From contig JBIKRV010000016.1 of NCBI GenBank assembly GCA_044348985.1, positions 5,725 to 69,724 on the forward strand: DNA of 64,000 nt, written 5' to 3'. The position numbers and the translations under genes were made by a program. The DNA is from Chitinophagaceae bacterium. GTDB taxonomy: Bacteria > Bacteroidota > Bacteroidia > Chitinophagales > Chitinophagaceae. Position 1 is the first letter of the stretch, and every line of letters starts with the position of its first letter. Below, one piece after another: positions 43,796 through 58,406 of the stretch. The notes beneath the pieces were generated by a model. It worked only from the letters and a program-made list of their open reading frames with translations. It had not been told where the DNA came from and did not search any database.

Positions 43796-44242
43796 ATGCC
43801 CTTTTCTTTTGGGGCTTTCATCCATGAGTTCATTACTCAACTGTAGTTCTGGCCTGCCCGTTCCGTTCAGGCGGCTTTACGTTGCTGCCTAAATACGTTG
43901 CTTTGGGCATTCACTGCAATCCAGCAGCCAGTCATCTAAAGAATATCTTTCAACAATACTAACATTTGTGAGCATACAATCTCTTGCAAACCCTTGCCAG
44001 CCTTAAAACCCATCAAAATTTGTTAACGCAATTTTTTCAAAAAAAATGTTGCTGGTTTTATAAACAACTGTACTTTTACGCCCATAAATGAATACAAGAA
44101 CACAACATAGTATCCCGTGTTTCGTTCCCAGACCACGACGTGGTTGCTGATAGGACGAGCAGTTGGCAATTGCCCCTATCAGTGAATTTCTCCCAGAACA
44201 TTCAATGCAGTGCCAAAATTTTCATTTTAATTCTTTTACAAG

Positions 44243-44950: not shown

Positions 44951-44963
44951 AAATCAATATTGC

Positions 44964-45022
44964 CGGTAAGACAGTAAGAAAAGAAAAATTACAAACTTAA
45001 CTTTACCGACTTTCTTTCTTCC
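44964..45022. repeat. imperfect inverted heptamer-array hairpin between GNAT gene and argG
   Basis: cggtaagacagtaagaaaagaaa pairs imperfectly with ctttaccgactttctttcttcc. Confidence 0.4.
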
Positions 45023-45043
45023 CTGCAAAATAAAAGATTATAT

Positions 45044-46249: not shown

Positions 46250-47237
46250 TGTTGGTATCATTGGAGGTGCAGGCTACACGGGTGGTGAATTAATTAGAAT
46301 ATTGATTAATCATCCAAACGCAAACATTGCTTATGTACAAAGCAAAAGCAATGCAGGTAATTTAATTTCATCGGTTCATGGAGATTTGATTGGAGAAACT
46401 GAATTGACATTTTCAGCTGAACACCATTTTGATATTGATGTTGTTTTTTTATGTGCAGGACATGGTGAAGGAAAGAAATTTGTTGCTGACAACGATATTC
46501 CGTCTGGAGTAAAAATTATTGATATTGGCAACGATTTTCGATTAAAAGCTGATGCCAATTTTAAAGGCAGAAATTTTGTTTACGGCTTACCCGAATTAAA
46601 TAAAGCAGCTATTCAACATGCCAACAGTATTGCCAATCCTGGTTGTTTTGCAACAGCTATTCAATTGGGTTTATTGCCATTGGCAAAAACAGGATTGTTA
46701 ACCGATATTTATACAACAGGTATTACAGGCAGTACAGGTGCTGGACAAAGTTTAAGTGCCACTTCTCATTTTAGTTGGAGAGCCAATAATATTCAGGCTT
46801 ATAAAACATTAACTCATCAGCACTTAGGAGAAATAAAGGAAAGCATAGATGCAATTAGTCTTCGCTTCAATAATCCCCCTTTAGGGAATAGGGGTGACTT
46901 AAGCTTTGTTCCTTGGCGTGGTGATTTTACCAGAGGTATCTTTGTAAGCTCTACACTTGCCTGTGATTTATCTCTTCCAGAGCTAACTGTTTTGTACAAC
47001 GATTTTTATAATGATTCAGCATTTACAACAGTTAGTGAAACAGCTGTACATTTAAAGCAAGTAGTCAATACCAATAAAGCTGTGATTCAATTAGAAAAAG
47101 TAGGTAACAAACTAGTTGTTCATTCTGCAATTGACAATTTATTAAAAGGTGCTTCAGGACAAGCAGTACAGAATATGAATTTAATGTTTGGTCTTGATGA
47201 GAGAGCTGGACTTAATTTAAAAGCAAATTATTTCTGA
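46236..47237 (+). CDS. argC: N-acyl-gamma-glutamyl-phosphate reductase
   Basis: GIIGGAGYTGGELIRIL NAD motif and catalytic NPGCFAT. Contains the in-frame 21-nt element (NPPLGNRGD). Confidence 0.93.
   Translation: MKKVNVGIIGGAGYTGGELIRILINHPNANIAYVQSKSNAGNLISSVHGDLIGETELTFSAEHHFDIDVVFLCAGHGEGKKFVADNDIPSGVKIIDIGNDFRLKADANFKGRNFVYGLPELNKAAIQHANSIANPGCFATAIQLGLLPLAKTGLLTDIYTTGITGSTGAGQSLSATSHFSWRANNIQAYKTLTHQHLGEIKESIDAISLRFNNPPLGNRGDLSFVPWRGDFTRGIFVSSTLACDLSLPELTVLYNDFYNDSAFTTVSETAVHLKQVVNTNKAVIQLEKVGNKLVVHSAIDNLLKGASGQAVQNMNLMFGLDERAGLNLKANYF
46874..46894 (+). repeat. 21-nt GC-rich element, copy A (inside argC)
   Basis: tccccctttagggaatagggg. 20 of 21 positions match copy D. Confidence 0.85.
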
Positions 47238-47308
47238 GGCGAAAGGCAAAAGGTAGAAGGCATATGGTAAAAGACGAAGAGAGGAAGGAGAAGAGGGAAA
47301 AAGCAAGC
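47238..47308 (+). repeat. purine-rich heptanucleotide array (left arm of four-helix-bundle cassette 2)
   Basis: gcgaaag gcaaaag gtagaag gcatatg gtaaaag acgaaga gaggaag gagaaga. It resembles the complement of the right arm at 47789-47870. Confidence 0.65.
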
Positions 47309-47414
47309 ATAAATAGGAGTCGTTTTAAAATAGATGAAAGGCAGAAGGAAAACCCAAATGATTATTTGTTTTCTTTGCCTTAAACCCTAAACCCTCCACC
47401 TCAAACCATTAAAC

Positions 47415-47777
47415 ATGCGTGATTACAAGAAATTAGATGTTTGGAAAAAATCTCACGAAATGTACATGTTCGTTAAAAGAAATATTGCTCCTAAATTTCC
47501 AAAAGAAGAAAGATATGAATTAACATCACAATTATTAAGAGCTGCTTTATCTGTTCCTTTAAACATTGTAGAAGGATGTGGTAGATTTACAGATAAAGAT
47601 TTTGCCAAACTTTTAGATACATCACTAGGTTCTACCAACGAAACTGATTATTGCTGTTTTGCAGCTTTAGAACTGAATTACATTACAAATACTGAATACG
47701 AAACAATTAATAAATTAATCAATGAAGTAAGGGCAATGTTAATTGCGTTTTTAAAACACCTAAGATCTAAAGAATAA
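47415..47777 (+). CDS. four-helix-bundle protein (23S rRNA IVS protein / Avd-like family)
   Basis: 120 aa. YKKLDVWKKSHEMYMFV...FPKEERYELTSQLLRAALSVPLNIVEGCGR is the family signature. Paralogous to 27964..28344. Confidence 0.85.
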   Translation: MRDYKKLDVWKKSHEMYMFVKRNIAPKFPKEERYELTSQLLRAALSVPLNIVEGCGRFTDKDFAKLLDTSLGSTNETDYCCFAALELNYITNTEYETINKLINEVRAMLIAFLKHLRSKE

Positions 47778-47788
47778 CATTACATTTT

Positions 47789-47870
47789 TAACCTTTACAC
47801 CCTCTACCTTAACCCTTTTACCTTACATCTTATACCTTAAACCCTACACCTTAAACCTTTCACCTTTTAT
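47789..47870 (+). repeat. pyrimidine-rich heptanucleotide array (nnACCTT x ~11), right arm of cassette 2
   Basis: aaccttt acaccct ctacctt aaccctt ttacctt acatctt atacctt aaaccct acacctt aaacctt tcacctt. Confidence 0.75.
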
Positions 47871-47873
47871 CTT

Positions 47874-49016
47874 ATGCCTTTATTCGACGTTTACCCACTT
47901 AACCCAATCACCATTACAAGAGCCCATGGTTCTTATGTTTGGGACGATAGCAATACCAGATATTTAGACATGTATGGCGGTCATGCAGTAATTAGCATTG
48001 GTCATACACACCCTTATTGGGTAGAAGCTATTAAAGAGCAAATGGATAAAATATCTTTTTATTCCAATTCAGTTGTTATGCCTATTCAACAGCAATTGGC
48101 TGAAAAATTAGGTAAGGTTTCGGGTAAAGAAGATTATCAATTGTTCTTATGCAACAGTGGTGCCGAGGCCAATGAAAATGCCATTAAACTAGCCAGCTTT
48201 CATAACGGAAGAAAAAAAGTAATTGCTTTCAGTAAATCATTTCATGGTCGTACCTCATTAGCAGTTGCTGCAACCGATAATAAAAATATTGTAGCACCAG
48301 TGAATGAAACGGATAATATTATTTTTCTTCCTTTTAACGATGAAGCTGCATTACAACAATGCTTTAATAAACAAGGCAATGAAATTTCATCTGTAATCAT
48401 CGAAGGTATTCAAGGAGTTGGTGGCATTAATGTTGCCAATAATTCTTTCTTAAAACTCATTAGAACTTTGTGTGATCAATACAATGCAATTTATATTGCT
48501 GATAGTGTACAATGTGGTTACGGACGTAGTGGTAAATTCTTTGCACATGATTATGCAGGCGTAAATGCCGATATTTATTCTATGGCAAAGGGCATGGGCA
48601 ATGGTTTTCCAATTGGTGGTATTTTAATTGCTCCAAAACTGCATGCCAAACATGGTATGTTGGGTACAACTTTTGGTGGCAATCCATTAGCTTGTGCTGC
48701 TGCAATTGCTGTGATAGATGTATTAGAAGATGATAATTTAATTGCTAAATCGAATGAACTGGGTAATTATTTGATGGCTGAATTACAAAAAATTAAAGGC
48801 ATTATCAACGTTCGTGGTCGTGGTTTAATGATAGGTTTTGAAATGACAGAAGCATTAAAAGATTTAAAAAAACAATTGCTATTCGATAGAAAAATATTTA
48901 CAGGAGAAGCCAAACCCAATGTAATTCGATTACTTCCGTCTTTAGCAATTACTAAAGATCAAGTAGATGTATTTTTACAAAACGTACGAGAGTTGGCAGC
49001 AGTTGCAAAAGCATAA
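47874..49016 (+). CDS. argD: acetyl/succinyl-ornithine aminotransferase (class III PLP aminotransferase)
   Basis: Class III aminotransferase layout (GGHAVISIGH, NSGAEANE, DSVQCGYGRSGKFF, SMAKGMGNGFPIGG) within the arg operon. Confidence 0.88.
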   Translation: MPLFDVYPLNPITITRAHGSYVWDDSNTRYLDMYGGHAVISIGHTHPYWVEAIKEQMDKISFYSNSVVMPIQQQLAEKLGKVSGKEDYQLFLCNSGAEANENAIKLASFHNGRKKVIAFSKSFHGRTSLAVAATDNKNIVAPVNETDNIIFLPFNDEAALQQCFNKQGNEISSVIIEGIQGVGGINVANNSFLKLIRTLCDQYNAIYIADSVQCGYGRSGKFFAHDYAGVNADIYSMAKGMGNGFPIGGILIAPKLHAKHGMLGTTFGGNPLACAAAIAVIDVLEDDNLIAKSNELGNYLMAELQKIKGIINVRGRGLMIGFEMTEALKDLKKQLLFDRKIFTGEAKPNVIRLLPSLAITKDQVDVFLQNVRELAAVAKA

Positions 49017-49020
49017 TTTT

Positions 49021-49071
49021 TTATGAACTGAGCATTGGTACAATGCCCAACTGTAGTGGCGTCGCACACTT
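49021..49071 (+). repeat. post-gene interspersed repeat (TTATGAACTG...AACTGTAGTGGCGTCGCACACTT), copy 1
   Basis: Shares ttatgaactg and aactgtagtKgcgtcgcacactt with 56038-56065. Both lie just after a stop codon (argD and argE). Confidence 0.7.
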
Positions 49072-49147
49072 GTACATTAGAATATAGCTGAACTGTTATA
49101 AGCCTCGATTTGTGTCCACATGAATCGAAATAAAAATTTAAAATATT

Positions 49148-50386
49148 ATGATTCAATACAATCGTTTTACACTTTCTAACGGACTAAAAGTTTTGGTGCA
49201 TGAAGATAGCAGCACGCCAATGGCTGTAGTAAATATCATGTACAATGTGGGTGCTAGAGATGAAAACCCCAACCAAACAGGCTTTGCTCATTTGTTTGAA
49301 CACTTGATGTTTGGTGGCAGTATTAACATTCCAGATTATGATGAGCCATTACAACGTGCAGGTGGAGAAAACAATGCTTACACCACCAACGACTTAACCA
49401 ATTATTACTGCACTTTACCAGCAGAAAATATTGAAACTGCATTTTGGTTAGAAAGTGACCGCATGTTGAGTTTGGCTTTTAGTGAAAAGAGTTTAGAAGT
49501 GCAACGCAAAGTGGTTTGCGAAGAGTTTAAAGAACATTACATTAACAAGCCTTATGGCGATGTATGGAATAAAATGCGAAACTTAGCTTACGATGTGCAT
49601 CCTTATAAATGGATGACCATTGGCAAAGAATTAAGCCATGTTGAAAATGCAATGATTGAAGATGTAAAAGCTTTTTTCTTTAAGTTCTATCGTCCATCAA
49701 ATGCAATTTTGGTAGTTGCAGGAAATGTACAAACAGCCGACGTAAAGCGATTGGCAGAAAAATGGTTTGGCGATATTCCGAGTGGAGAAAAATACGAAAG
49801 AAATTTGCCACAAGAACCCAAACAACAACAAGCCAAATTTTTAGAAGTAAAAGCCGATGTACCTTTAGATGCGTTGATTAAAACCTGGCATATCGAAGCT
49901 CGTTTAACCAAAGGCTATTATGTAGCTGATTTAATTACTGAAGTTTTAGGTGGTGGTGGTTCATCTCGTTTGTATCAGTCGTTGGTAAAAGAAAAACAAT
50001 TGTTCAGCAATTTAGATTGTTACCACTTTGGAAGTGTTGAAGCTGGTTTATTGGCCATTGAAGGGAAACTGGTGAAAGGCATAAAAATGGAAGATGCAGA
50101 AAAAGCAGTGCAGGAAGAATTGGAAAAAATAAAGACCACTTTAATTAGCGATGCTGAATTACAAAAAGTAATTAATCGTACCGAAAGTGTGATTACGTTT
50201 GAAGACATGGGTGTTATGAGCCGAGCCAATAGCTTAGCCATGTATGAATTATTAGGTGATGCAGAATTAATGAATACAGAGTTTTCGAAGTATCAAGAAG
50301 TTACTATTCAAGATATTCAGCAGTATGCACAAAAAATATTTGATGACAAAAACAGTAGTACGATACATTACTATAGTAAAAATTAA
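49148..50386 (+). CDS. M16 (pitrilysin) family zinc peptidase, active subunit
   Basis: HxxEH zinc motif HLFEHLMF. 412 aa. Confidence 0.9.
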   Translation: MIQYNRFTLSNGLKVLVHEDSSTPMAVVNIMYNVGARDENPNQTGFAHLFEHLMFGGSINIPDYDEPLQRAGGENNAYTTNDLTNYYCTLPAENIETAFWLESDRMLSLAFSEKSLEVQRKVVCEEFKEHYINKPYGDVWNKMRNLAYDVHPYKWMTIGKELSHVENAMIEDVKAFFFKFYRPSNAILVVAGNVQTADVKRLAEKWFGDIPSGEKYERNLPQEPKQQQAKFLEVKADVPLDALIKTWHIEARLTKGYYVADLITEVLGGGGSSRLYQSLVKEKQLFSNLDCYHFGSVEAGLLAIEGKLVKGIKMEDAEKAVQEELEKIKTTLISDAELQKVINRTESVITFEDMGVMSRANSLAMYELLGDAELMNTEFSKYQEVTIQDIQQYAQKIFDDKNSSTIHYYSKN

Positions 50387-50413
50387 TTTGTAGATTTGGG
50401 AAAATAACATGTT

Positions 50414-50602
50414 ATGTCAATTACAAAAACACAAATCATAGAAGCTATCCAAGCAATGCCTAAAGAGGAGTTTACAGATATTGATGAGGTATTGGAAGAA
50501 ATTGTTTTGTTGGATAAAATTGAACAGGGTTTAGAAGCAATGAGAAAAGGAGAAGTTGTATCGGAAACAGAAGCTCATAAAATAATGGATGCATGGCAAT
50601 AG
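50414..50602 (+). CDS. type II antitoxin (partner of ParE-like toxin)
   Basis: 62 aa, acidic. Overlaps the toxin start by 10 nt. Confidence 0.6.
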   Translation: MSITKTQIIEAIQAMPKEEFTDIDEVLEEIVLLDKIEQGLEAMRKGEVVSETEAHKIMDAWQ

Positions 50603-50904
50603 TAAATTATACGCTACCAGCATTACAGGATTTGAAAGACATACGTGATTACATTGCTAAAGATTCTGTTGTTAACGCAAAACGTTTTATTCAAGCTATA
50701 AAAGACCACATTACAATACTCAATAAATATCCTGAAATAGGTAATCAAGTTTTTCCAAATCGATATAACAACCTAAGACAGTTACTACACAAAGCTTATC
50801 GTATTATTTATTATTATGAAAATGATGTTGTAACTATTATAACAATTCATCATCAATCAAGATTAGTCGAAAACATAAAAGTTGTAAAAGACTTTACAAA
50901 ATAA
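50593..50904 (+). CDS. ParE/RelE family toxin (plasmid-stabilisation type)
   Basis: ALQDLKDIRDYIAKDS...AKRFIQAIKDHITILNKYPEIG...YRIIYYYENDVVTIITIHHQSR is a ParE-like pattern. Confidence 0.8.
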   Translation: MAIVNYTLPALQDLKDIRDYIAKDSVVNAKRFIQAIKDHITILNKYPEIGNQVFPNRYNNLRQLLHKAYRIIYYYENDVVTIITIHHQSRLVENIKVVKDFTK

Positions 50905-50905
50905 A

Positions 50906-52186
50906 ATGACAAACAGAACACAAGCCCCCAACATATTAGATGCAGTTGAATTAGACTTGCAACTAAAACCTATAGAACAATTTAAACTAGATAATCAAGT
51001 GCCTGTTTATGCCTTTGATGGTGGTGCACAAGATGTACTGCTAGTTGAATTTGTTTTTTATGCAGGCAACTGGTACGAGGATAAAAATATTGTTGCCGGC
51101 ACTACCAACTTTATGTTGAAGAATGGCACAAAAAATAAATCGGCTTTTGCTATAAACGATCATTTTGAATTTCATGGTGCTTTCTTAAATAGAAATTGTT
51201 ACAATGAAACTGCAACTGTTACGCTGCACACGTTAAATAAACATTTACCAAAATTATTACCAGTAGTAGCAGAGCTTTTTACAGATAGTATTTTCCCCGA
51301 AGAAGAACTGGCTATTTACAAAAAAAATCAAAACCAGCGTTTAGAAGTTAGTTTAAAAAAATGCGATTTTGTTGCCAACCGTTTAATTGATGAATATGTA
51401 TATGGGTTGCATCATCCTTATGGAAAATATACTTCTACTGTAGATTATGATGCTTTGCAAAGAGAAGAATTGGTAAAGTTTTATCAAGAATTTTATACAC
51501 ATGGCAAGTGCATGATTTTTGTTGCAGGAAAATTACCTGCCGATATACAAGAGCAACTGAATAACAACTTTGGTCAATTACCTTTCAGTCCTCAAAAAAA
51601 CAGTGAAAGAGCTTACAATATTGCACCAGCAACAGAGAAAAAGCAGCTTATTATTAACGATGAAAATGGTGTGCAAGGTGCTATACGTTTGGCTCGTCCT
51701 TTTCCGAACAGGCACCATCCTGATTTTATGAGAGTGCAAATACTGAACAATATTTTTGGTGGCTTTTTTGGCAGTCGTTTAATGAGTAATATAAGAGAAG
51801 ATAAAGGTTATACCTATGGCATACATTCTTATGTACAAAACCACATTCATGAATCTGCCTGGATGATTAGTACAGAAGCTGGCCGTGCTGTTTGTGAAGC
51901 AACCATTGAGGAAACCTACAAAGAAATGGGCATTCTAAGAGATGAGTTGGTAGATGAAGAAGAACTAAACTTAGTGAGAAACTTTATGATGGGTAGCTTA
52001 TTAGGCGATTTAGATGGACCATTTCAAATTATTGCACGTTGGAAAAACTATATACTAAATAATCTTACTGAACAATATTTTTATAACTCTATCGAAACCA
52101 TAAAAACCATTAGTGCCGAAGAATTACAAGACTTGGCTAAGAAATATTTAAACCCTGAAGATTTTTATGAATTGACGGTAGTGTAA
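50906..52186 (+). CDS. M16 family peptidase-like protein, non-catalytic partner subunit
   Basis: M16 fold length and pattern without an HxxEH motif. Paired with 49148..50386. Confidence 0.8.
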   Translation: MTNRTQAPNILDAVELDLQLKPIEQFKLDNQVPVYAFDGGAQDVLLVEFVFYAGNWYEDKNIVAGTTNFMLKNGTKNKSAFAINDHFEFHGAFLNRNCYNETATVTLHTLNKHLPKLLPVVAELFTDSIFPEEELAIYKKNQNQRLEVSLKKCDFVANRLIDEYVYGLHHPYGKYTSTVDYDALQREELVKFYQEFYTHGKCMIFVAGKLPADIQEQLNNNFGQLPFSPQKNSERAYNIAPATEKKQLIINDENGVQGAIRLARPFPNRHHPDFMRVQILNNIFGGFFGSRLMSNIREDKGYTYGIHSYVQNHIHESAWMISTEAGRAVCEATIEETYKEMGILRDELVDEEELNLVRNFMMGSLLGDLDGPFQIIARWKNYILNNLTEQYFYNSIETIKTISAEELQDLAKKYLNPEDFYELTVV

Positions 52187-52198
52187 AATTAACAAATT

Positions 52199-52561
52199 AT
52201 GCAACAGTATATTACAAGAATACTTATCACCGCTGCAGCGGCTCTCATTGCTTCGTGGATGTTGAAAGGTGTAGAAATAGACAGTAGTTTAACTGCTATT
52301 TTAGTAGCTGTTGTATTAGGCTTATTGAACACTTTTGTAAAGCCAGTTTTAATATTACTAACCATTCCTATTACTGTATTTACGTTAGGCTTATTTCTGT
52401 TGGTAATTAATATTGTTATTGTAAAGTGGGTAGCCACATTGGTTCCAGGATTTACTGTTGCCAATTGGTGGGCTGCTTTGTGGTTTAGTATAATTGTATC
52501 TGTTTTTTCTACAGTTATTCAAAGCTTAGCCAAAACAAATAATATAGAAAATGAGGAGTAA
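52199..52561 (+). CDS. phage-holin-family / DUF360-like small membrane protein
   Basis: 120 aa with four TM segments. FVKPVLILLTIPITVFTLGLFLLVIN is typical of the PF04020 family. Confidence 0.65.
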   Translation: MQQYITRILITAAAALIASWMLKGVEIDSSLTAILVAVVLGLLNTFVKPVLILLTIPITVFTLGLFLLVINIVIVKWVATLVPGFTVANWWAALWFSIIVSVFSTVIQSLAKTNNIENEE

Positions 52562-52575
52562 AGAATAAAGCGTTG

Positions 52576-52632
52576 AAGCCGATATCTATCGGCTGTGCGA
52601 TACTTCGAGTTAGCTCAGTACAGGCTACACAA
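52576..52632 (+). repeat. ~60-nt interspersed repeat with AGCCGATAnCTATCGGCT palindrome, copy 2
   Basis: aagccgatatctatcggctgtgcgatacttcgagttagctcagtacaggct, matching 1994-2054. Confidence 0.7.
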
Positions 52633-52688
52633 TTGTTCAATAGTAATTCTGAAGTAGGCAAAATAATATTTATAAAAAACACAAATAA

Positions 52689-52710
52689 TCCCCCCTTTAG
52701 GGGATAGGAG
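52689..52710 (+). repeat. 21-nt GC-rich element, copy B (ends 1 nt before argF' ATG)
   Basis: tcccccctttaggggataggag, preceded by aataa as in copy A. Confidence 0.8.
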
Positions 52711-52711
52711 T

Positions 52712-53710
52712 ATGAAACAATTTATTTCTGTAAACGATGTTGCAAACATCAATGAATTGGTAGCAAAAGCATTGGCGTATAAAGCCAATCCTTTTGTTGA
52801 CAAAACCTTGGGAGCCAATAAACGTATTGGTTTATTGTTTTTAAATCCAAGTTTGCGTACACGTTTAAGTACACAGGTTGCTGCCAGTAATTTAGGCATG
52901 GAAGCCATTGTGTTCAATGTAGATAAAGAAGGCTGGGCATTGGAGTTTGAAGAAGGAGCAATTATGAGTGGCACAACTGTTGAACACATTAAAGATGCTG
53001 CACCAATTTTGGGGAATTATTTTGATATTTTAGCTATCAGAACATTTCCTTCTTTGGCTAACAAAGAAGATGATTACAGCGAAATGTACATTAAGCAATT
53101 TATAAAATATGCAGGTGTACCTGTGGTTAGTTTAGAGAGTGCAACCTTACACCCTTTACAATCACTTACAGATATCATTACAATTAGAGAAGATTTGAAC
53201 CTTAAACCTCAAACCTTAAACCTTAAACCTCGTATTGTTCTCACTTGGGCTCCACATGTAAAGCCTTTGCCACAATGTGTTGCCAATAGTTTTGCTCAAT
53301 GGATCAATGCATGGGGAGAAGCAGATTTTGTTATCACCCATCCTGAAGATTATGAACTGAGTGAAGAATTTACCAAAGGAGCTACCATAATACATAACCA
53401 AGATGAAGCCTTGAAAAATGCAGATTATGTGTATGTAAAAAACTGGAGTACGTTTACCGATTATGGCAAGATCTATGAAAATAATCCACGTTGGATGATG
53501 ACTAATGATAAGTTGGCTTTAACCAATAATGCCAAAGTAATGCACTGCTTACCAGTGAGAAGAAATGTTGAATTGAGTGATGAAGTTTTAGATGGACCTA
53601 ATAGTTTGGTAACACAAGAAGCAGGTAACAGAGTTTGGGCAGCACAGACAGTATTGAGTGAACTGCTAAGCCCCTATCCCCTAAAGGTGGACGATAACGT
53701 TCTACTATAA
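52712..53710 (+). CDS. argF': N-succinyl/N-acetyl-ornithine carbamoyltransferase
   Basis: FLNPSLRTRLS carbamoyl-phosphate motif and HCLPVRRN motif, within a Bacteroidetes-type arg operon. Carries an internal heptamer array and a C-terminal extension from element copy C. Confidence 0.88.
   Translation: MKQFISVNDVANINELVAKALAYKANPFVDKTLGANKRIGLLFLNPSLRTRLSTQVAASNLGMEAIVFNVDKEGWALEFEEGAIMSGTTVEHIKDAAPILGNYFDILAIRTFPSLANKEDDYSEMYIKQFIKYAGVPVVSLESATLHPLQSLTDIITIREDLNLKPQTLNLKPRIVLTWAPHVKPLPQCVANSFAQWINAWGEADFVITHPEDYELSEEFTKGATIIHNQDEALKNADYVYVKNWSTFTDYGKIYENNPRWMMTNDKLALTNNAKVMHCLPVRRNVELSDEVLDGPNSLVTQEAGNRVWAAQTVLSELLSPYPLKVDDNVLL
53197..53231 (+). repeat. tandem heptanucleotide repeat (AACCTTA x ~4.9) inside argF'
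   Basis: aacctta aacctca aacctta aacctta aacctc, translated as NLKPQTLNLKP. Confidence 0.85.
53671..53691 (-). repeat. 21-nt GC-rich element, copy C (reverse; in argF' 3' end)
   Basis: The reverse complement is tccacctttaggggatagggg, matching copy D at 20 of 21 positions. Translated as SPYPLKVD. Confidence 0.85.
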
Positions 53711-53720
53711 CGATTCTTTT

Positions 53721-54917
53721 ATGAAAGAAAATATGTTTTACGGAGCAAGCAATTTAATTTTTCAGCGTGCTGAAGAATTGAGGAATCGTATGACATCTGC
53801 TGAAGAATTATTGTGGAAGCAAATTCATATAAATGAGTGGAAACAGAAATTTAGGAGACAACATCCTATAGCAAACTATGTAGTTGATTTTTATTGTCAT
53901 GCTTTAAAGCTGGTGATTGAACTGGATGGCGGAATTCACGAAGTAGAAGATGTAAAAAAATATGACGAGTATAGGGAAGCACATTTGAAAGAATTAGGAT
54001 TAACTGTACTTCGATTTAAGAACGAAGAAGTGTTTAAAGAAAATAAATCAGTGCTAAAGACCATTGAAAATGTTGTGAATCAGCTTAAAAGTCCCCCTTT
54101 AGGGGATAGGGGCAAGGAGCAATTATACGTTATAAAAATTGGTGGAAATATTATAGATGATGAAAGTAAACTTGCGTCATTCTTACAATCATTTGCTACA
54201 ATTAAAGGAAAGAAAATATTAATCCATGGTGGTGGAAAATTGGCTACTAAAGTTGCAGAAGGAATGAACATTCAGCAACAAATGGTTGATGGAAGAAGAA
54301 TTACAGATGCCGAAACATTGAAGGTTGTTACCATGGTGTACGCAGGTTTTATCAATAAAAATATTGTTGCACAATTGCAAGCCAGTAACTGCAATGCTAT
54401 TGGACTGACAGGAGCAGATGGCAACGCAATACTTGCTCACAAACGTGTTTCTAGCTCCCCTTTAGGGGTTGGGGGCATTGATTATGGTTTTGTAGGAGAT
54501 GTTAATGCTGTAAATGCAGATTTACTGAACAGTTTATTGCAACAAAACATTGCAGTTGTTTTAGCTCCAATCACACACAATAAAGAAGGACAATTACTAA
54601 ACACCAATGCCGATACCATTGCCCAGGAAACAGCTAAAGCAATGAGTGCTTTATATGAAACTTCATTGATTTATTCTTTTGAAAAAGCTGGTGTATTGCT
54701 AGATGTGGAAGATGAAACAAGTGTAATTAACTCCATCAATCCAGCATCATATGAGTCTTTAAAAGAAAAGGGGGCAATTTTCGCTGGTATGATTCCAAAA
54801 TTAGACAATGCTTTTGCTGCTGTTGAAAGTGGTGTAAGCAAAGTGATTATTGGCAAAGCAGAACAATTACAACAACTGATAGATGGTACAGCTGGAACAA
54901 CCATCAACAACAAATAA
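53721..54917 (+). CDS. argB: DUF559 (Vsr-like endonuclease fold) domain fused in-frame to acetylglutamate kinase
   Basis: Residues 1-~125 carry LLWKQI...KFRRQHPIANYVVDFYCHALKLVIELDGGIHE...LGLTVLRFKNEEV (DUF559). Residues ~133-398 carry LYVIKIGGNIID, ILIHGGGK and DYGFVGDV (ArgB). There is no stop or canonical start codon between them. Confidence 0.85.
   Translation: MKENMFYGASNLIFQRAEELRNRMTSAEELLWKQIHINEWKQKFRRQHPIANYVVDFYCHALKLVIELDGGIHEVEDVKKYDEYREAHLKELGLTVLRFKNEEVFKENKSVLKTIENVVNQLKSPPLGDRGKEQLYVIKIGGNIIDDESKLASFLQSFATIKGKKILIHGGGKLATKVAEGMNIQQQMVDGRRITDAETLKVVTMVYAGFINKNIVAQLQASNCNAIGLTGADGNAILAHKRVSSSPLGVGGIDYGFVGDVNAVNADLLNSLLQQNIAVVLAPITHNKEGQLLNTNADTIAQETAKAMSALYETSLIYSFEKAGVLLDVEDETSVINSINPASYESLKEKGAIFAGMIPKLDNAFAAVESGVSKVIIGKAEQLQQLIDGTAGTTINNK
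54092..54112 (+). repeat. 21-nt GC-rich element, copy D (DUF559/ArgB junction)
   Basis: tccccctttaggggatagggg, translated as SPPLGDRG. Confidence 0.85.
54456..54475 (+). repeat. 21-nt GC-rich element family, copy E (inside ArgB domain)
   Basis: tcccctttaggggttggggg, translated as SSPLGVGG. Confidence 0.75.
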
Positions 54918-54923
54918 ATAATT

Positions 54924-55994
54924 ATGACTACCTCTATTGATAACTTATTTTCAGAATCAGTTGAACTGTTAAAACAACTCATTGCAACACCATCATTCTC
55001 TAAAGAAGAAAATGATACTGCCGAAATTATTTGTGCTTTTTTCGATAAACACAACATACCACATGCTCGTGTAGGCAATAATATTTATGCCAAGAACAAG
55101 CATTATGATGCTGCTAAAAAAAGCATATTATTAAACTCTCACCACGATACTGTAAAACCCAATAAAGGCTATACACTAGACCCATTTACCCCAATTGAAA
55201 AAGAGGGTAAATTATTTGGTTTGGGAAGTAATGACGCAGGTGGCTGTTTGGTTTCTTTGATAGCAACTTTTTTATTTTACTACGATAGAAATGATACCAC
55301 TTACAATGTAGTTTTTGCAGCAAGTGCCGAAGAAGAAATTAGTGGCGTTAATGGAATTGAATTGGTATTGCCTTACTTAGGTGCCATTGATTGTGGCATT
55401 GTTGGCGAACCAACCAAATTAGAAATGGCTGTTGCAGAACGTGGCTTGATGGTGATTGATTGTACTGCTGAAGGTCGTGCTGGTCATGCAGCTCGTAAAG
55501 AAGGTGAAAGTGCTTTGTACAAAGCTGTGGATGATATTAATTGGATTCGTAATTATCATTTTGCAAGAGTAAGCAGCCTGTTAGGCGAAAGCATGTTAAC
55601 TGCAACTGTTATAGAAACAGACAACAAACAACACAATGTTGTGCCTGCACAATGCAAATTTGTAATTGATGTTCGGGTGAATGAACTGTACACATTTGAT
55701 GAAATTTTAGAAGAACTTAAAAACAATCTGAAAAGTAAATTCAAGCCTCGAACAACAAGAATGAAATCGACTTCTATTTCATTAGAGCATCCATTGGTAA
55801 AAGCTGGATTGGCATTGGGCAAAGGTTATTATGGAAGTCCAACCACAAGCGATAAAGCATTGATGCCTTTCTCTACTTTAAAAATGGGACCAGGCGATAG
55901 TGCAAGAAGTCATACAGCCGATGAATACATTTATTTGGATGAGATAAAGAATGGTATTGAAACGTATATTAACTTGTTGAATCAGTTGTTGTAA
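54924..55994 (+). CDS. argE: M20 family metallo-hydrolase (acyl-ornithine deacylase)
   Basis: M20 motifs LLNSHHDTV, GSNDAGG and EEEISG. Position between argB and argH. Confidence 0.8.
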   Translation: MTTSIDNLFSESVELLKQLIATPSFSKEENDTAEIICAFFDKHNIPHARVGNNIYAKNKHYDAAKKSILLNSHHDTVKPNKGYTLDPFTPIEKEGKLFGLGSNDAGGCLVSLIATFLFYYDRNDTTYNVVFAASAEEEISGVNGIELVLPYLGAIDCGIVGEPTKLEMAVAERGLMVIDCTAEGRAGHAARKEGESALYKAVDDINWIRNYHFARVSSLLGESMLTATVIETDNKQHNVVPAQCKFVIDVRVNELYTFDEILEELKNNLKSKFKPRTTRMKSTSISLEHPLVKAGLALGKGYYGSPTTSDKALMPFSTLKMGPGDSARSHTADEYIYLDEIKNGIETYINLLNQLL

Positions 55995-56013
55995 TTCTGA
56001 GCGTAGTCGAAGG
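55994..56013 (-). repeat. CCTTCGAC..GCTCAG short interspersed motif (reverse copy)
   Basis: The reverse complement is ccttcgactacgctcagaat; compare 7404-7425. Confidence 0.5.
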
Positions 56014-56037
56014 GTTTGGTAACGAGCTGCATAACAT

Positions 56038-56065
56038 TTATGAACTGTAGTTGCGTCGCACACTT
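56038..56065 (+). repeat. post-gene interspersed repeat, copy 2
   Basis: ttatgaactgtagttgcgtcgcacactt; compare 49021-49071. Confidence 0.7.
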
Positions 56066-56095
56066 TTGGTTTTTGAATAAAACTGAACTTTTTTT

Positions 56096-56171
56096 CACCG
56101 CAGAGAACAGGAGTTAAAGAGCATACGCAGAGACTCAGCGAAAACCTCTGCTTCTCTTGTACTCTGCGGTA
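56096..56171. repeat. CGCAGAG/CTCTGCG palindromic intergenic element upstream of argH
   Basis: accgcagag (56097-56105) pairs with ctctgcggt (56162-56170), with internal cgcagagac / cctctgc. Confidence 0.65.
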
Positions 56172-56189
56172 AAATTAAAATGATAAAAA

Positions 56190-57521
56190 ATGAAACTTTG
56201 GCAAAAAGATAAAGCATCATTAAAAGAAGTGGAAACATTTACGGTAGGTAAAGATCCTGAGTTTGATTTAATGCTTGCTCCTTTTGATGTTTTAGGAAAT
56301 ATAGCTCATGCTAAAATGTTAGCAACAGTTGGCTTATTAACCCAATTAGAAGCAGAGCAATTAACAGAAGAACTAAAAAAAATATACGCTCAAATTCCAA
56401 ATCCCAAATTCCAAATTCCCCAAGGCGTTGAAGACATTCATTCTTATGTGGAATTTCTACTCACAGAAAAGCTCGGTGACATTGGTAAAAAAATTCACTC
56501 AGCCCGTAGCAGAAATGATCAGGTTTTGGTAGATGTAAAACTCTTTTTAAGAAATGAAATTGAAGAAATGGTGAATGCCATTCAACCATTCTTTCAATTA
56601 TTGCAACAACAAAGCGAAGCTTTTAAAAATCATTTATTACCCGGCTATACACATTTACAAATAGCTATGCCCAGCAGTTTTGGTTTGTGGTTTGGAGCCT
56701 ATGCAGAGAGTTTGGTAGATGATGTTACTACCTTACATGCAGCCTATCAGGTAGTGAATAAAAATCCTTTAGGCAGTGCTGCAGGTTATGGTTCTTCTTT
56801 TCCCATCAACAGAACATTAACCACACAATTATTGGGCTTTGCTGATTTGAATTACAATGTGGTGTATGCACAAATGGGCAGGGGAAAAGCTGAACGAATT
56901 ACAGCACAGGCATTAGCCAATGTGGCTGATACATTGAGCAGGTTAAGTATGGATATGACTTTGTACTTAAACCAGAATTTCGACTTCGTTTCTTTTCCAA
57001 CAGAGTTAACAACAGGCAGCAGTATTATGCCTCATAAAAAAAATCCCGATGTATTTGAATTAATAAGAAGTCATTGCAACAGAATAAAAGCATTGCCCAA
57101 TGAAATTACCCTAATGACTACCAATTTGCCAAGTGGTTATCATAGAGATTTACAATTATTGAAAGAACATTTGTTTCCTGCATTTCAAACATTGAAAGAT
57201 TGTATTAATATGGCTGCATTAATGCTCAGCAATATTTCTGTAAAAGAAAATATTGTAGCCGATGAAAAGTACAAATACATTTTTAGTGTGGAAGAAGTCA
57301 ATAAACTCGTGTTACAAGGCGTACCATTCAGAGATGCGTACAAACAAGTTGGTCTTGCTATTGAAGCCAATCAATTTACTTATTCAACTGAAGTAAACCA
57401 TACACACAAAGGCAGTATTGGCAATTTATGTACTGAACAAATTAATGGTATGATGCAAACTACATTAGGCAAGTTTGAATTCGAAAAAGTACATGCGGCA
57501 ATTGATAGCTTGTTGAAATAA
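56190..57521 (+). CDS. argH: argininosuccinate lyase
   Basis: Fumarate-lyase signature GSSIMPHKKNPD and SARSRNDQV. 443 aa. Confidence 0.96.
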   Translation: MKLWQKDKASLKEVETFTVGKDPEFDLMLAPFDVLGNIAHAKMLATVGLLTQLEAEQLTEELKKIYAQIPNPKFQIPQGVEDIHSYVEFLLTEKLGDIGKKIHSARSRNDQVLVDVKLFLRNEIEEMVNAIQPFFQLLQQQSEAFKNHLLPGYTHLQIAMPSSFGLWFGAYAESLVDDVTTLHAAYQVVNKNPLGSAAGYGSSFPINRTLTTQLLGFADLNYNVVYAQMGRGKAERITAQALANVADTLSRLSMDMTLYLNQNFDFVSFPTELTTGSSIMPHKKNPDVFELIRSHCNRIKALPNEITLMTTNLPSGYHRDLQLLKEHLFPAFQTLKDCINMAALMLSNISVKENIVADEKYKYIFSVEEVNKLVLQGVPFRDAYKQVGLAIEANQFTYSTEVNHTHKGSIGNLCTEQINGMMQTTLGKFEFEKVHAAIDSLLK

Positions 57522-57523
57522 TG

Positions 57524-57600
57524 AACCACAGGGCAAAGAAGCAAGGAAGTTTAACTTATAAATCTCTGCGTTAACTCCCCATCTCTGTGCCTCTGCGGTA
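57524..57600. repeat. CTCTGYG-type intergenic element downstream of argH / terC
   Basis: gaaccacaggg ... atctctgcg ... atctctgtgcctctgcggt. Confidence 0.55.
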
Positions 57601-57605
57601 AGTAC

Positions 57606-58406
57606 CTACTTCGCCATATCACCACCTTTATGCTCTGTTTCTTCTTTCAAAACAGGTTCTCTCAACTCAACTGGTTTGGTGCTTTTCTTTCTCATTTGAA
57701 GGTTCAATAATTCTACCCCAAATGAAAAAGCCATGGCAAAATAAACATAGTTTTTAAGGTGCAACATTTCTGCAGCATGATGGTCCCAACCTTCTACCAA
57801 TAGTGTAAAACCAATCATTACCAAGAACGATAATGCCAACATCTTTATAGTTGGATGGTTATGTATAAATCCTGCGATTTTTGAACTGAATAAAAACATT
57901 ATAATCATTGCTATAACAACTGCAGCCACCATTATTTCAATATGTTTAGCAGTACCACCAGCAGTAATAATACTGTCGAAACTGAAAACCATATCAATCA
58001 TCATAATTTGTGCCACTGCATTGGCAAAAGACAATGGTTTCGATTTGCCTGCATAACCACTCTCCTCTTCACCTTCAAGTTTATGATGAATTTCTTTTAC
58101 CGTTTTATACATTAAAAACAAACCACCACCCAACATAACCAAACTTGCTAAATCAAACGATTTACCAAATGCTCCAAATACTTCTTTACCTTTTTGAGCC
58201 AATAACCAGGTTAATCCATACAATAACAGACAGCGTATAAAAATGCCTGTAAACATCCAGGTTAAACGGGCTTTAGGTTGTTTTTCTTTCGGCAAACGGT
58301 TCATAATAATGCTTACAAAAATTACATTATCAATGCCCAAGACAATTTCTAAAATAACCAATACAAAAAAACTAATAATACTTTCTGATGTAAATAAATG
58401 TTCCAT
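57606..58406 (-). CDS. TerC family integral membrane protein
   Basis: LEIVLGIDNVIFV and FSFDSIITA motifs. Start MEHLF at 58406; the track ORF is extended. Confidence 0.88.
   Translation of the reverse strand: MEHLFTSESIISFFVLVILEIVLGIDNVIFVSIIMNRLPKEKQPKARLTWMFTGIFIRCLLLYGLTWLLAQKGKEVFGAFGKSFDLASLVMLGGGLFLMYKTVKEIHHKLEGEEESGYAGKSKPLSFANAVAQIMMIDMVFSFDSIITAGGTAKHIEIMVAAVVIAMIIMFLFSSKIAGFIHNHPTIKMLALSFLVMIGFTLLVEGWDHHAAEMLHLKNYVYFAMAFSFGVELLNLQMRKKSTKPVELREPVLKEETEHKGGDMAK

What the first reader, a model, noticed from the sequence alone, without database searches (positions are those of the whole stretch)
53671..54917. DUF559 endonuclease-like cassette with 21-nt terminal inverted repeats, translationally fused to acetylglutamate kinase
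ORF 53721..54917 (398 aa) consists of a complete DUF559/Vsr-fold module followed, without a stop codon, by a complete ArgB. The DUF559 part carries ...RRQHPIANYVVDFYCHALKLVIELDGGIHE...LGLTVLRFKNEEV. The ArgB part carries LYVIKIGGNIID, ILIHGGGK and DYGFVGDV. The DUF559 part is bracketed by inverted copies of the 21-nt element at 53671-53691 and 54092-54112, which match at 20 of 21 positions. Together they define a 442-bp unit that looks like a minimal TIR-bounded cassette dropped between argF' and argB. In-frame codons between copy D and the VIKIGG motif are ggc aag gag caa tta tac gtt ata aaa. None of them is ATG, GTG or TTG. ArgB can therefore apparently only be made as an N-terminal DUF559 fusion or from a non-canonical internal start. 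The left repeat also rewrites the C-terminus of ArgF'.
Basis: partly seen in the sequence, partly recalled or inferred. Interest (0 to 1): 0.7.

Follow-up and report, generated by a model that had tools for sequence, protein, structure and literature searches.

The report
Nuclease cassette fused onto arginine kinase
A small nuclease-like gene bracketed by inverted GC-rich repeats sits exactly between two arginine-synthesis genes and has become the obligatory front end and start codon of the enzyme ArgB; the same bracketed cassette turns up at other gene junctions and inside other genes, so it looks like an undescribed kind of selfish mobile module.

Summary
ORF 53721..54917 encodes a complete DUF559 (Vsr-fold nuclease) domain fused to a complete ArgB. 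A 23-nt inverted repeat brackets the DUF559 part.

The event is neither private nor recent. At least 120 protein clusters from Chitinophagaceae carry the same fusion. In most of the relatives checked the same two arms are present, conserved at synonymous codon positions.

About 60 related genomes show the empty site (argF' stop, then ATG-argB). The window's AAG (54114-54116) occupies the position of that lost ATG. ArgB therefore depends on the cassette's start codon.

DUF559 is under strong purifying selection (dN/dS about 0.09) and tracks host phylogeny. It has nonetheless decayed independently in several lineages.

The arms belong to a dispersed, strictly polarised mini-repeat family. Close pairs are always convergent (37 versus 0). 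Extra copies occur in 11 of 12 arg loci that carry DUF559 but only 8 of 61 empty ones.

DUF559 homologues elsewhere are also bracketed by GC-rich hairpin inverted repeats. Examples are umuD|umuC, hisH|hisA, and insertions inside SpoU and HsdR.

Best reading: an old, once-mobile nuclease cassette locked in by translational dependence. It may be the partner nuclease of the mini-repeats, as RAYT is for REPINs. That mobility mechanism is inferred, not shown.

The parts
52690..52710 (-). Solo copy of the mini-repeat. It lies one base upstream of the argF' ATG (52712), in the same orientation as the right arm.
52712..53710 (+). argF' (carbamoyltransferase). Its last roughly 12 codons are encoded by the left arm and the spacer.
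53670..53692 (+). Left arm of the inverted repeat (GCCCCTATCCCCTAAAGGTGGAC). It is read in frame as the ArgF' tail SPYPLKVD.
53693..53720 (+). Spacer holding the last argF' codons, the stop codon (53708-53710) and a 10-nt gap before the cassette's ATG. The equivalent spacers of L001, L003 and L008 look similar by eye.
53721..54089 (+). DUF559 / Vsr-fold nuclease module (aa 1-123). It carries the only canonical start codon of the fusion ORF. D56, E67, D69 and H73 are at least 90% conserved.
54091..54113 (-). Right arm of the inverted repeat (GTCCCCCTTTAGGGGATAGGGGC). It is read in frame as the disordered linker SPPLGDRG.
54114..54116 (+). AAG (K132), at the position of the ancestral argB ATG. 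Relatives have AAG, AAA or AGG here. ATG is kept only in L004 and P0013.
54114..54917 (+). ArgB (acetylglutamate kinase) module, including the stop codon.
54457..54477 (-). Diverged copy of the mini-repeat inserted in frame inside ArgB (SSSPLGVGG). It is predicted to be a disordered loop. It is absent from many homologues but present at the same site in P0011 and P0038.
46874..46894 (-). Copy of the mini-repeat lying in frame inside argC, read as PPLGNRG.

Best explanation
Shown:
- A unit of about 440 bp lies exactly at the argF'/argB operon junction. It runs left arm, short spacer, ATG plus a 123-codon DUF559 (Vsr/PD-(D/E)XK-fold nuclease) ORF, then right arm.
- The left arm is translated as the new tail of ArgF'. 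The right arm is translated as a disordered linker.
- ArgB's own ATG has decayed to AAG, so no canonical start remains between the arm and the kinase core.
- The arrangement is old. It is shared across many Chitinophagaceae lineages, DUF559 evolves under strong purifying selection in step with its neighbours, and it has been deleted or pseudogenised independently several times.
- In the decayed cases ArgB continues from the ORF's original start or from a remnant-internal start.

Inferred:
- ArgB is therefore made from the cassette's ATG as a DUF559-ArgB protein of about 44 kDa.
- The cassette is, or was, a selfish mobile module. It lands at tight operon junctions or in frame inside genes and rides on host transcription.
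- At this site it became hard to lose once ArgB lost its start codon.
- The arms belong to a dispersed, polarised GC-rich hairpin mini-repeat family. DUF559 may be that family's cognate nuclease, recognising or cutting the hairpin ends, in the way RAYT serves REP/REPIN elements.
- In the mRNA the two arms can pair and loop out the insert. This may limit polarity on the downstream gene.
For: Fusion and domains.

Not an artefact: the exact protein is on 15 independent contigs.

Widespread: at least 120 clusters have both Pfam domains at 65-89% identity. Twelve of the 80 loci kept from the species-representative scan carry it, and DUF559 and ArgB are in the same frame in all 12.

Empty site: about 60 loci read '...stop, M(D/E)KLYVIKIGG'. 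The window's K132 aligns with that Met.

Arms in relatives: L001-L005, L007 and L085 have both arms. The linker codons CCC CCT TTA GGG GAT GGG GGC are nearly identical at third positions. Elsewhere, invariant four-fold sites average 0.36 identity and pS is about 0.75.

Selection: dN/dS is 0.08-0.09 for DUF559 against 0.11 for ArgB.

Vertical signal: DUF559 pairwise identity correlates with that of ArgF' (r = 0.80) and ArgB (r = 0.73).

Independent decay: L009 appears to be an in-frame internal deletion that keeps the first codons (MNTNINIYEAS against MKENMFYGAS, my reading). L015, L037 and L167 are remnants or pseudogenes.

Same architecture elsewhere:
- umuD|DUF559|umuC has a 25-nt inverted repeat with the same CCCCTAAAGGGG core, and its right arm abuts the umuC ATG.
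- hisH|DUF559-hisA.
- Inside SpoU, 37-nt inverted repeat.
- Inside HsdR, 36-nt inverted repeat.
- A stand-alone copy with a 26-nt inverted repeat.
- In-frame fusions to HisF, TrpF, DegT and methyltransferases, and an internal insertion in a Type ISP protein, with repeat-like peptides on both sides of DUF559 where both sides are coding. P0132 continues into a tail that I read, from memory, as a ribosomal protein L15 C-terminus.

Link to the mini-repeats: extra copies occur in 11 of 12 DUF559-bearing arg loci against 8 of 61 empty loci (Fisher p = 2e-7). Pairs within 700 nt are 37 convergent against 0 divergent.

RNA: the minimum-energy and centroid folds of 53655-54130 both contain the arm-arm stem (z = -4.7).
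Against: - No nuclease or transposition activity is shown for any DUF559 protein.
- I saw no obvious target-site duplication in the listed pairs, and I ran no systematic test.
- Only one DUF559 copy is visible in 64 kb, and whole genomes could not be scanned. Copy number and the genome-wide link between DUF559 and the repeats are therefore untested.
- The sequences between paired arms are mostly not homologous to one another. This is unlike classical MITEs.
- Sequence next to the junction shows no co-conversion signal, so recent horizontal spread is not demonstrated.
- The clean empty sites are scattered across the tree. They are hard to derive by simple deletion, so the history of gains and losses is unresolved.
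- Strong conservation of DUF559 could instead reflect a host function.
- In-frame GTGs at 54030 and 54075 leave room for a shorter ArgB product.
Confidence: 0.65

Rival explanations
1. The arms are host operon-junction RNA elements and are not ends of the cassette. One orientation sits at gene 3' ends and the other at gene 5' starts. In the mRNA they pair and loop out intergenic spacers, for processing or translational coupling. DUF559 would then be an unrelated small gene that landed inside one such bracketed spacer.
For: The family is strongly polarised with respect to genes. Copies in the 'f' orientation lie at ORF N-termini (15) or internally (26), never at C-termini. Copies in the 'r' orientation lie at C-termini (8) or internally (8), never at N-termini. 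All 37 close pairs are convergent, and they bracket short, variable, AT-rich spacers. A solo copy abuts the argF' ATG. The long-range stem is predicted to be stable.
Against: DUF559 homologues are bracketed by GC-rich inverted repeats at other junctions and inside other genes (SpoU, HsdR), and the arm sequences differ from locus to locus. This points to a specific tie between DUF559 and its repeats. Empty argF'/argB junctions lack arms altogether. Repeat copies are about 9-fold commoner in arg loci that carry DUF559.
Confidence: 0.2
2. DUF559 is a homing-type endonuclease. Its target would be a closely spaced convergent pair of the mini-repeat, that is, two inverted half-sites. The gene would be copied into the spacer by repair, which separates the half-sites and protects the occupied site from further cutting. 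The arg copy would be one such homing event that later became fixed.
For: DUF559 always lies between convergent arms. Empty convergent pairs are abundant. The pattern of presence, absence and decay at a single site resembles a homing cycle. In both close pairs DUF559 has the lowest dS of the five neighbouring genes, 0.26 against 0.64-1.48 and 0.41 against 0.47-0.75. Vsr-like homing endonucleases exist: I-Bth0305I (PMC3239194) and the fractured-gene family (PMC2677866). One published classification places VSR, DUF559 and DUF2726 in a single group with 1cw0, 3hrl and 3r3p (PMC3424549).
Against: Clean empty arg junctions carry no arm pair that could be targeted. There is no co-conversion signal in the flanks. 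DUF559 divergence tracks the host. No cleavage data exist.
Confidence: 0.2
3. This is a host-beneficial domain fusion specific to ArgB. The DUF559 domain would have been recruited as a regulatory, oligomerisation or nucleic-acid-binding domain of acetylglutamate kinase, and the flanking repeats would be incidental.
For: Conservation is long-lasting and strong (dN/dS about 0.09). The fusion frame is maintained in all 12 loci.
Against: The same domain is fused to or inserted into many unrelated proteins (HisA, HisF, TrpF, DegT, SpoU, HsdR, methyltransferases), and most homologues are stand-alone. Several lineages deleted or pseudogenised it while keeping ArgB. Most Chitinophagaceae ArgB proteins lack it. 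The linker is predicted to be disordered (pLDDT below 50 at residues 124-130).
Confidence: 0.1
4. The fusion is an assembly or sequencing artefact, or a pseudogene. A missed stop or frameshift would separate two ordinary genes.
For: None was found beyond the absence of an ATG for ArgB.
Against: The identical protein occurs on 15 contigs from independent assemblies. More than 120 diverged homologues keep the open frame.
Confidence: 0.02

Closest known systems
REPtron / RAYT-REPIN systems (REP-associated tyrosine transposase flanked by inverted REP sequences; PMC3116915, PMC5581495, bioRxiv 10.1101/2021.07.10.451892)
   Same: A protein gene is bracketed by inverted copies of a short hairpin-forming repeat that is also dispersed through the genome as singlets and inverted doublets. 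The gene appears largely vertically inherited and is under purifying selection. Repeats are scarce where the gene is absent.
   Different: The protein is a DUF559 / Vsr-fold PD-(D/E)XK domain, not an HUH/Y1 transposase. The cassette is translationally fused to host genes. Repeat copies often lie in frame inside ORFs and are polarised towards gene starts and ends. The host is Bacteroidota. Genome-wide copy numbers were not tested.
Vsr-like (EDxHD) homing endonucleases: I-Bth0305I and the free-standing genes of 'fractured genes' (PMC3239194, PMC2677866)
   Same: They share the Vsr-type nuclease fold class (PMC3424549 puts VSR, DUF559 and DUF2726 in one group). They are selfish insertions into or between essential genes, and the site shows a pattern of presence, absence and decay.
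   Different: There is no intron or intein, and Pfam detects no Hint domain. This cassette is flanked by inverted hairpin repeats and is read through as part of the host protein. It sits in a chromosomal biosynthetic operon rather than in phage genes. Sequence membership in the EDxHD family was not tested.
Rickettsia palindromic elements and similar small repeats inserted in frame in ORFs (mainly from my own knowledge; PMC4316617 appeared in one search but I did not read it)
   Same: Short palindromic repeats are tolerated in frame inside protein-coding genes as extra loops. Examples here are argC at 46874, argB at 54457, and variable sites in homologues.
   Different: These repeats are about 20 nt rather than about 100-150 nt. 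They occur with a defined polarity at gene boundaries and are associated with a nuclease gene.
23S rRNA intervening-sequence ORF elements (four-helix-bundle / PF05635 proteins bracketed by stem-forming inverted repeats); element biology from my own knowledge
   Same: A small ORF is enclosed by inverted repeats that can form a long-range RNA stem within a host transcript. One such ORF lies in this same operon (47415-47777).
   Different: The protein family and the repeats are different. The host transcript is an mRNA with translational read-through, not an rRNA. RNase III processing was not tested.

Membership tests
DUF559 (PF04480), Vsr-like PD-(D/E)XK nuclease fold | Profile match above the curated threshold across the whole domain | tested here: met
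   The match scores 108 bits against a cutoff of 20.6 and covers profile positions 5-108 of 109. The closest solved structure is 3HRL, E 4.4e-20.
DUF559 (PF04480), Vsr-like PD-(D/E)XK nuclease fold | Conserved acidic and histidine residues of the active site | tested here: met
   D56, E67, D69 and H73 are at least 90% conserved in the 18-sequence alignment. I assigned these residues to the active site from the motif, not from a structural superposition.
DUF559 (PF04480), Vsr-like PD-(D/E)XK nuclease fold | Endonuclease activity | not testable with these tools
   This needs biochemistry.
Acetylglutamate kinase ArgB (TIGR00761 / PF00696) | Equivalog-level profile match, kinase fold and arg-operon context | tested here: met
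   TIGR00761 scores 195.8 against 151.3. Foldseek's top hits are NAGK structures, led by 2buf at E 5e-22. The gene is flanked by argF' and argE/argH.
TIR-bounded DNA transposon or MITE | Terminal inverted repeats at the exact boundaries of the inserted segment, judged against empty sites | tested here: met
   The arms are 23 nt. In the empty loci printed in the argF' reading frame, ArgF' ends 3-4 codons after '...EIL' and argB starts at an ATG.
TIR-bounded DNA transposon or MITE | Target-site duplication | tested here: inconclusive
   I saw no obvious direct duplication flanking the arms or the 37 pairs. I did not search systematically.
TIR-bounded DNA transposon or MITE | Several copies of the same unit within one genome, and a recognised transposase | not testable with these tools
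   Only one DUF559 lies in the 64-kb window, and whole genomes were not available. DUF559 is not, to my knowledge, a recognised transposase family.
REPtron (RAYT flanked by REP/REPIN) | Gene flanked by inverted copies of a dispersed hairpin repeat | tested here: met
REPtron (RAYT flanked by REP/REPIN) | The gene encodes an HUH / IS200-IS605-type Y1 transposase | tested here: not met
   Pfam finds only DUF559 and related restriction-endonuclease-like domains. The locus is therefore not a member, only an analogue.
REPtron (RAYT flanked by REP/REPIN) | The repeat population depends on the presence of the gene | tested here: inconclusive
   Within arg loci the association is strong: 11 of 12 against 8 of 61, p = 2e-7. 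It was not tested genome-wide.
Homing endonuclease gene | Occupied, empty and degenerate alleles at one homologous site across related genomes | tested here: met
Homing endonuclease gene | Cleavage of the empty allele, with co-conversion of the flanks | tested here: inconclusive
   Protein sequence next to the junction shows no excess similarity between fusion-carrying loci. Cleavage cannot be tested here.
Intein | Hint / protein-splicing domain around the in-frame insert | tested here: not met
   Pfam at E up to 0.01 reports no Hint or intein domains. The insert is N-terminal, not internal.

The most novel reading that the evidence does not exclude
DUF559 proteins together with their flanking GC-rich hairpin inverted repeats may form an undescribed class of nuclease-driven mini mobile elements, apparently present in very different bacterial lineages. 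They would be functional analogues of RAYT/REPIN built on a Vsr-fold nuclease. They insert precisely at operon gene junctions or in frame inside genes, seed populations of about 20-nt polarised mini-repeats, and can become irreplaceable by capturing the translation start of an essential host enzyme, as with ArgB here.
Probability: 0.4. Interest if true: 0.85.

Novelty: new variant of a known kind. Interest (0 to 1): 0.72.

Why it matters
DUF559 is a very large family of unknown function, with more than 22,000 50%-identity clusters at E up to 0.001. These results give it a testable role: a nuclease that lives inside hairpin inverted repeats and inserts at gene junctions or in frame inside genes.

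If that is right, three things follow:
- It would add a non-HUH analogue to the REP/RAYT paradigm.
- It would account for many odd nuclease fusions to metabolic enzymes and restriction-modification proteins in databases, and for the short G/P-rich peptide inserts seen in Chitinophagaceae ArgB homologues.
- It would show one way a selfish insert becomes fixed: the host gene loses its own start codon.

In practice, ArgB annotations in this clade hide an extra nuclease domain, and gene callers disagree about the start (the 295-aa call P0029).

Tried and rejected
1. Arg-specific regulatory site. All 5 window copies and all 4 L085 copies of the mini-repeat lie within or directly beside arg genes. 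I therefore considered the arms to be operators or RNA sites bound by DUF559-ArgB. I rejected this as a general explanation because an exact-match metagenome scan found only 8 of 80 loci in arg clusters. Local enrichment remains unexplained.

2. Classical MITE with a conserved interior. The spacers between paired arms are 17-144 nt and mostly unrelated.

3. Recent horizontal spread with co-conversion of flanks. No signal was found.

4. A single-clade, one-off fusion. The fusion is scattered in the ArgF', ArgB and four-protein trees.

5. A known RNA family for the arms. Rfam gave no hit at E up to 1 over 44000-58000.

6. A defence or phage identity for DUF559. PADLOC and PHROGs gave only weak partial hits.

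7. Literature. Searches for DUF559, COG2852, Vsr-like with inverted repeats, the repeat core sequence, and ArgB with endonuclease fusion found no description of this cassette. One 2007 paper noted a DUF559 fused to a SPOUT methyltransferase.

8. Two further DUF559 loci (L209, L212) sat on contigs too short to test for flanking repeats. One look-up (P0137) returned nothing.
Full report
**1.

ORF 53721..54917 is an uninterrupted 398-codon frame. Pfam places a complete DUF559 domain at residues 15-119 (E 2.9e-31) and a complete amino-acid-kinase domain at residues 135-378 (E 5e-36). NCBIfam's argB equivalog model scores 195.8 bits against a cutoff of 151.3.

The AlphaFold model shows two separately folded domains. 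Its ArgB part matches solved acetylglutamate kinases. The closest solved relative of the N-terminal part is the DUF559 structure 3HRL (E 4e-20).

The inverted repeat is 23 nt long, at 53670-53692 and 54091-54113, and 96% complementary. At three mismatches or fewer the 21-mer has 4 matches in the window and none in 100 shuffles. No ATG, GTG or TTG lies between the right arm and the VIKIGG motif. In-frame GTGs do exist just upstream of the arm, at 54075 (V119) and 54030 (V104).

The identical protein is recorded on 15 contigs from independent JGI and Logan assemblies. The fusion is therefore not an assembly error.

**2. The fusion is shared, not private**

A search of the protein collection returned at least 120 clusters that carry both domains. 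They are 386-429 aa long and 65-89% identical, with named members from Chitinophagaceae and Flavisolibacter.

In an 18-sequence alignment the DUF559 domain is conserved about as well as ArgB. The linker peptide SPPLGD(R/G)G, with conservative variants, is present in every sequence. A Met at the start of the ArgB part is kept only in P0013.

**3. Empty sites define the insert**

A scan of one genome per species kept the 80 best-matching Chitinophagaceae arg loci. They fall into three groups:

| State of the argF'/argB junction | Loci |
|---|---|
| DUF559 in the same frame as ArgB | 12 |
| Short N-terminal extension or DUF559 remnant | 7 |
| Empty: argF' stop followed within 0-30 nt by ATG-argB (M(D/E)KLYVIKIGG) | about 60 |

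Aligning the junctions shows that the window's AAG (54114-54116, K132) lies exactly where the ancestral ATG was. Other fusion carriers have AAG, AAA or AGG there, and ATG survives only in L004 and P0013.

In the empty loci printed in the argF' frame, ArgF' ends 3-4 codons after '...EIL'. In fusion carriers the left arm begins right after '...EIL' and supplies the new tail.

**4. The arms are conserved in relatives at the nucleotide level**

L001-L005, L007 and L085 carry the left arm (GCCCCCATCCCCTAAAGGGG) in the last argF' codons. They carry the right arm (CCCCTTTAGGGGATGGGGGC) in the linker. L008 has lost the right arm, and in L006 both arms have decayed.

The linker codons CCC CCT TTA GGG GAT GGG GGC are nearly identical at their third positions. 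Invariant four-fold-degenerate codons elsewhere in the ORF average only 0.36 third-position identity, and synonymous sites between genera are saturated (pS about 0.75).

So the arms are constrained, or repeatedly homogenised, as DNA or RNA and not merely as peptide. In the Ferruginibacter-type loci checked (L010, L012, L014), copies flank DUF559 in direct orientation, and a further inverted copy lies at the argF' end in L010 and L012.

**5. Evolutionary behaviour**

- *Selection.* dN/dS for DUF559 is 0.08-0.09, against 0.11 for ArgB.
- *Vertical signal.* DUF559 pairwise identity correlates with that of ArgF' (r = 0.80) and ArgB (r = 0.73).
- *Patchy distribution.* Carriers are scattered through the ArgF', ArgB and four-protein trees (1303 columns). 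Several clades with 84-100% bootstrap support mix carriers with empty or remnant loci. Fitch parsimony needs 9 changes for 10 carrier tips.
- *Independent decay.* L009, the window's sister lineage, appears to keep the first roughly 10 codons and the right arm after an in-frame internal deletion (MNTNINIYEAS against MKENMFYGAS, my reading). L015 and L037 keep only the C-terminal part. L167 is a pseudogene with stop codons that still begins MKENIFY.
- *No co-conversion.* ArgF' and ArgB sequence next to the junction is not unusually similar among carriers.
- *Low dS.* In both close pairs DUF559 has the lowest dS of the five neighbouring genes: 0.26 against 0.64-1.48, and 0.41 against 0.47-0.75. 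This hints at occasional replacement of the cassette or at synonymous constraint.

The balance between gains and losses is unresolved. It is clear that the element is old, is functionally maintained in many lineages, and is dispensable in others.

**6. The arms belong to a dispersed, polarised mini-repeat family**

The window has five copies:
- in frame inside argC (46874);
- one base upstream of the argF' ATG (52690);
- the two arms (53671 and 54092);
- in frame inside argB (54457).

ArgB homologues carry further in-frame copies at other positions.

Of the 80 loci kept, only 8 are arg clusters. The repeat is therefore not arg-specific.

Within 700 nt, pairs are always convergent: 37 convergent, 0 divergent and 16 in the same orientation. 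That is the polarity of the arms around DUF559.

Relative to ORFs, the right-arm orientation occurs at N-termini or internally but never at C-termini. The left-arm orientation occurs at C-termini or internally but never at N-termini. Most copies lie outside ORFs.

Extra copies, beyond the two arms, occur in 11 of 12 DUF559-bearing arg loci and in 8 of 61 empty ones (Fisher p = 2e-7).

**7. The same cassette architecture exists elsewhere**

A search of 1.84 billion cluster representatives with the DUF559 domain found 22,756 hits at E up to 0.001. Most of the 150 best hits listed are stand-alone proteins of 120-160 aa. Among the longer hits are in-frame fusions or insertions involving unrelated proteins:
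- HisA, HisF, TrpF and a DegT aminotransferase;
- a sequence (P0132) that continues into what I read, from memory, as the C-terminal tail of ribosomal protein L15;
- a SpoU methyltransferase (internal insertion);
- HsdR (internal insertion);
- a Type ISP protein (internal insertion);
- DNA methyltransferases.

Wherever the flank is coding, short G/P-rich peptides of the repeat type border the DUF559 domain.

Every locus with enough flanking DNA showed GC-rich, hairpin-containing inverted repeats around DUF559:

| Locus | Context | Inverted repeat |
|---|---|---|
| L086 | hisH \| DUF559-hisA | Tandem upstream copies plus an inverted linker copy |
| L087 | Inside SpoU | 37 nt |
| L208 | Inside HsdR | 36 nt |
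| L210 | Stand-alone | 26 nt, 92% complementary |
| L211 | umuD \| DUF559 \| umuC | 25 nt, 88% complementary |

L211 shares the CCCCTAAAGGGG core with the window. Its right arm abuts the umuC ATG, and a TAG inside that arm ends DUF559. That TAG and the retained umuC ATG are the two features that separate a stand-alone cassette from the arg fusion.

**8. How it most likely works**

*Shown.* The cassette occupies a tight operon junction. It is positioned to be co-transcribed with the arg genes, and its ATG lies 10 nt after the argF' stop. Its ORF runs through the right arm into ArgB, and ArgB has no canonical start of its own.

*Inferred with good support.* ArgB is made as a DUF559-linker-ArgB protein. 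The linker (124-130) and the internal repeat-encoded loop (245-253) are predicted to be disordered. Loss of the ArgB ATG made the insert hard to remove. This explains why decayed lineages keep the ORF's original start or a start within the remnant.

*Inferred by analogy.* The DUF559 domain may be the nuclease that recognises the hairpin arms and maintains or propagates the mini-repeat family. This would be a RAYT/REPIN-like relationship built on a Vsr-fold enzyme. A homing-type variant, with cleavage between convergent arms, is also possible.

*RNA.* The arms are predicted to pair in the mRNA. The minimum-energy and centroid folds both contain the 22-bp stem (z = -4.7). That would loop out the insert and bring the upstream stop close to the downstream start. 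Whether this affects coupling or processing is untested.

**9. Relation to known systems and novelty**

The locus is a member of DUF559 and of ArgB. It is not a RAYT because it has no HUH domain. It is not an intein because it has no Hint domain. It is not shown to be a member of any recognised homing-endonuclease or transposase family.

It resembles three known kinds of element:
- REPtrons, in its bracketing by dispersed hairpin repeats;
- Vsr-like homing endonuclease genes (PMC3239194, PMC2677866), in its fold class and selfish insertion;
- Rickettsia-type palindromic elements, in the in-frame repeat inserts.

I found no description of this cassette, or of the DUF559-ArgB fusion, in the searchable literature. 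I rate it a new variant of a known kind. If the nuclease-repeat partnership is confirmed, it would amount to a new class of element.

Noticed in passing
window 47237-47873 (ORF 47415..47777): A second ORF bracketed by inverted repeats lies in the same operon. It encodes a four-helix-bundle / 23S-rRNA-IVS-family protein (TIGR02436 E 6.5e-30; PF05635). It fills the argC-argD spacer and is bracketed by 38-nt imperfect (71%) purine-rich / pyrimidine-rich inverted repeats with a 7-nt period. A 71%-identical copy sits at the same place in L167.
   Followed up: partly
window 46874-46894 and 54457-54477: Copies of the mini-repeat lie in frame inside argC (PPLGNRG) and argB (SSSPLGVGG). The argB copy is a low-confidence loop in the model (pLDDT below 50 at residues 245-253). 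ArgB homologues carry similar inserts at other positions.
   Followed up: partly
window 49148-52561: The arg cluster is interrupted between argD and argF' by a block of about 3.4 kb. The block holds two M16 peptidase genes, a small ORF plus ParE-toxin pair, and a Phage_holin_4_2-family membrane protein. In L167 argD is followed directly by argF'. In the 89%-identical relative L085 the gene upstream of argF' encodes RNase Y instead.
   Followed up: no
window 49049-49100 and 56043-56095: A motif of about 50 nt, AACTGTAGTnGCGTCGCACACTT...GAATAnAnCTGAACT, is shared by two intergenic regions. One follows argD and the other lies between argE and argH; the core is 96% identical. From memory, the GAATAAAACTGAAC part resembles an ARG-box half-site. 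It could be a regulatory element.
   Followed up: no
window 56093-56174 and 57527-57603: Another repeated hairpin-type intergenic element, ACCGCAGAG...CTCTGCGGTAA, occurs upstream of argH and downstream of argH.
   Followed up: no
window 53199-53249: A run of ACCTTAA-type 7-nt repeats lies inside argF' and encodes LNLKPQTLNLKP. It falls in a loop of variable length in ArgF' homologues and resembles the pyrimidine-rich arm next to the four-helix-bundle ORF.
   Followed up: partly
L086 2790-2960: A tandem array of about seven copies of GAAGCCCCGGCCCTAAAGGGAGAA fills the hisH-hisA spacer upstream of a DUF559-HisA fusion. This shows that the arm repeat can amplify locally.
   Followed up: no
L005 and L006; window and L085: In both close genome pairs DUF559 has the lowest synonymous divergence of the five adjacent genes (0.26 against 0.64-1.48, and 0.41 against 0.47-0.75). 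This could mean recent exchange of the cassette or synonymous constraint.
   Followed up: partly
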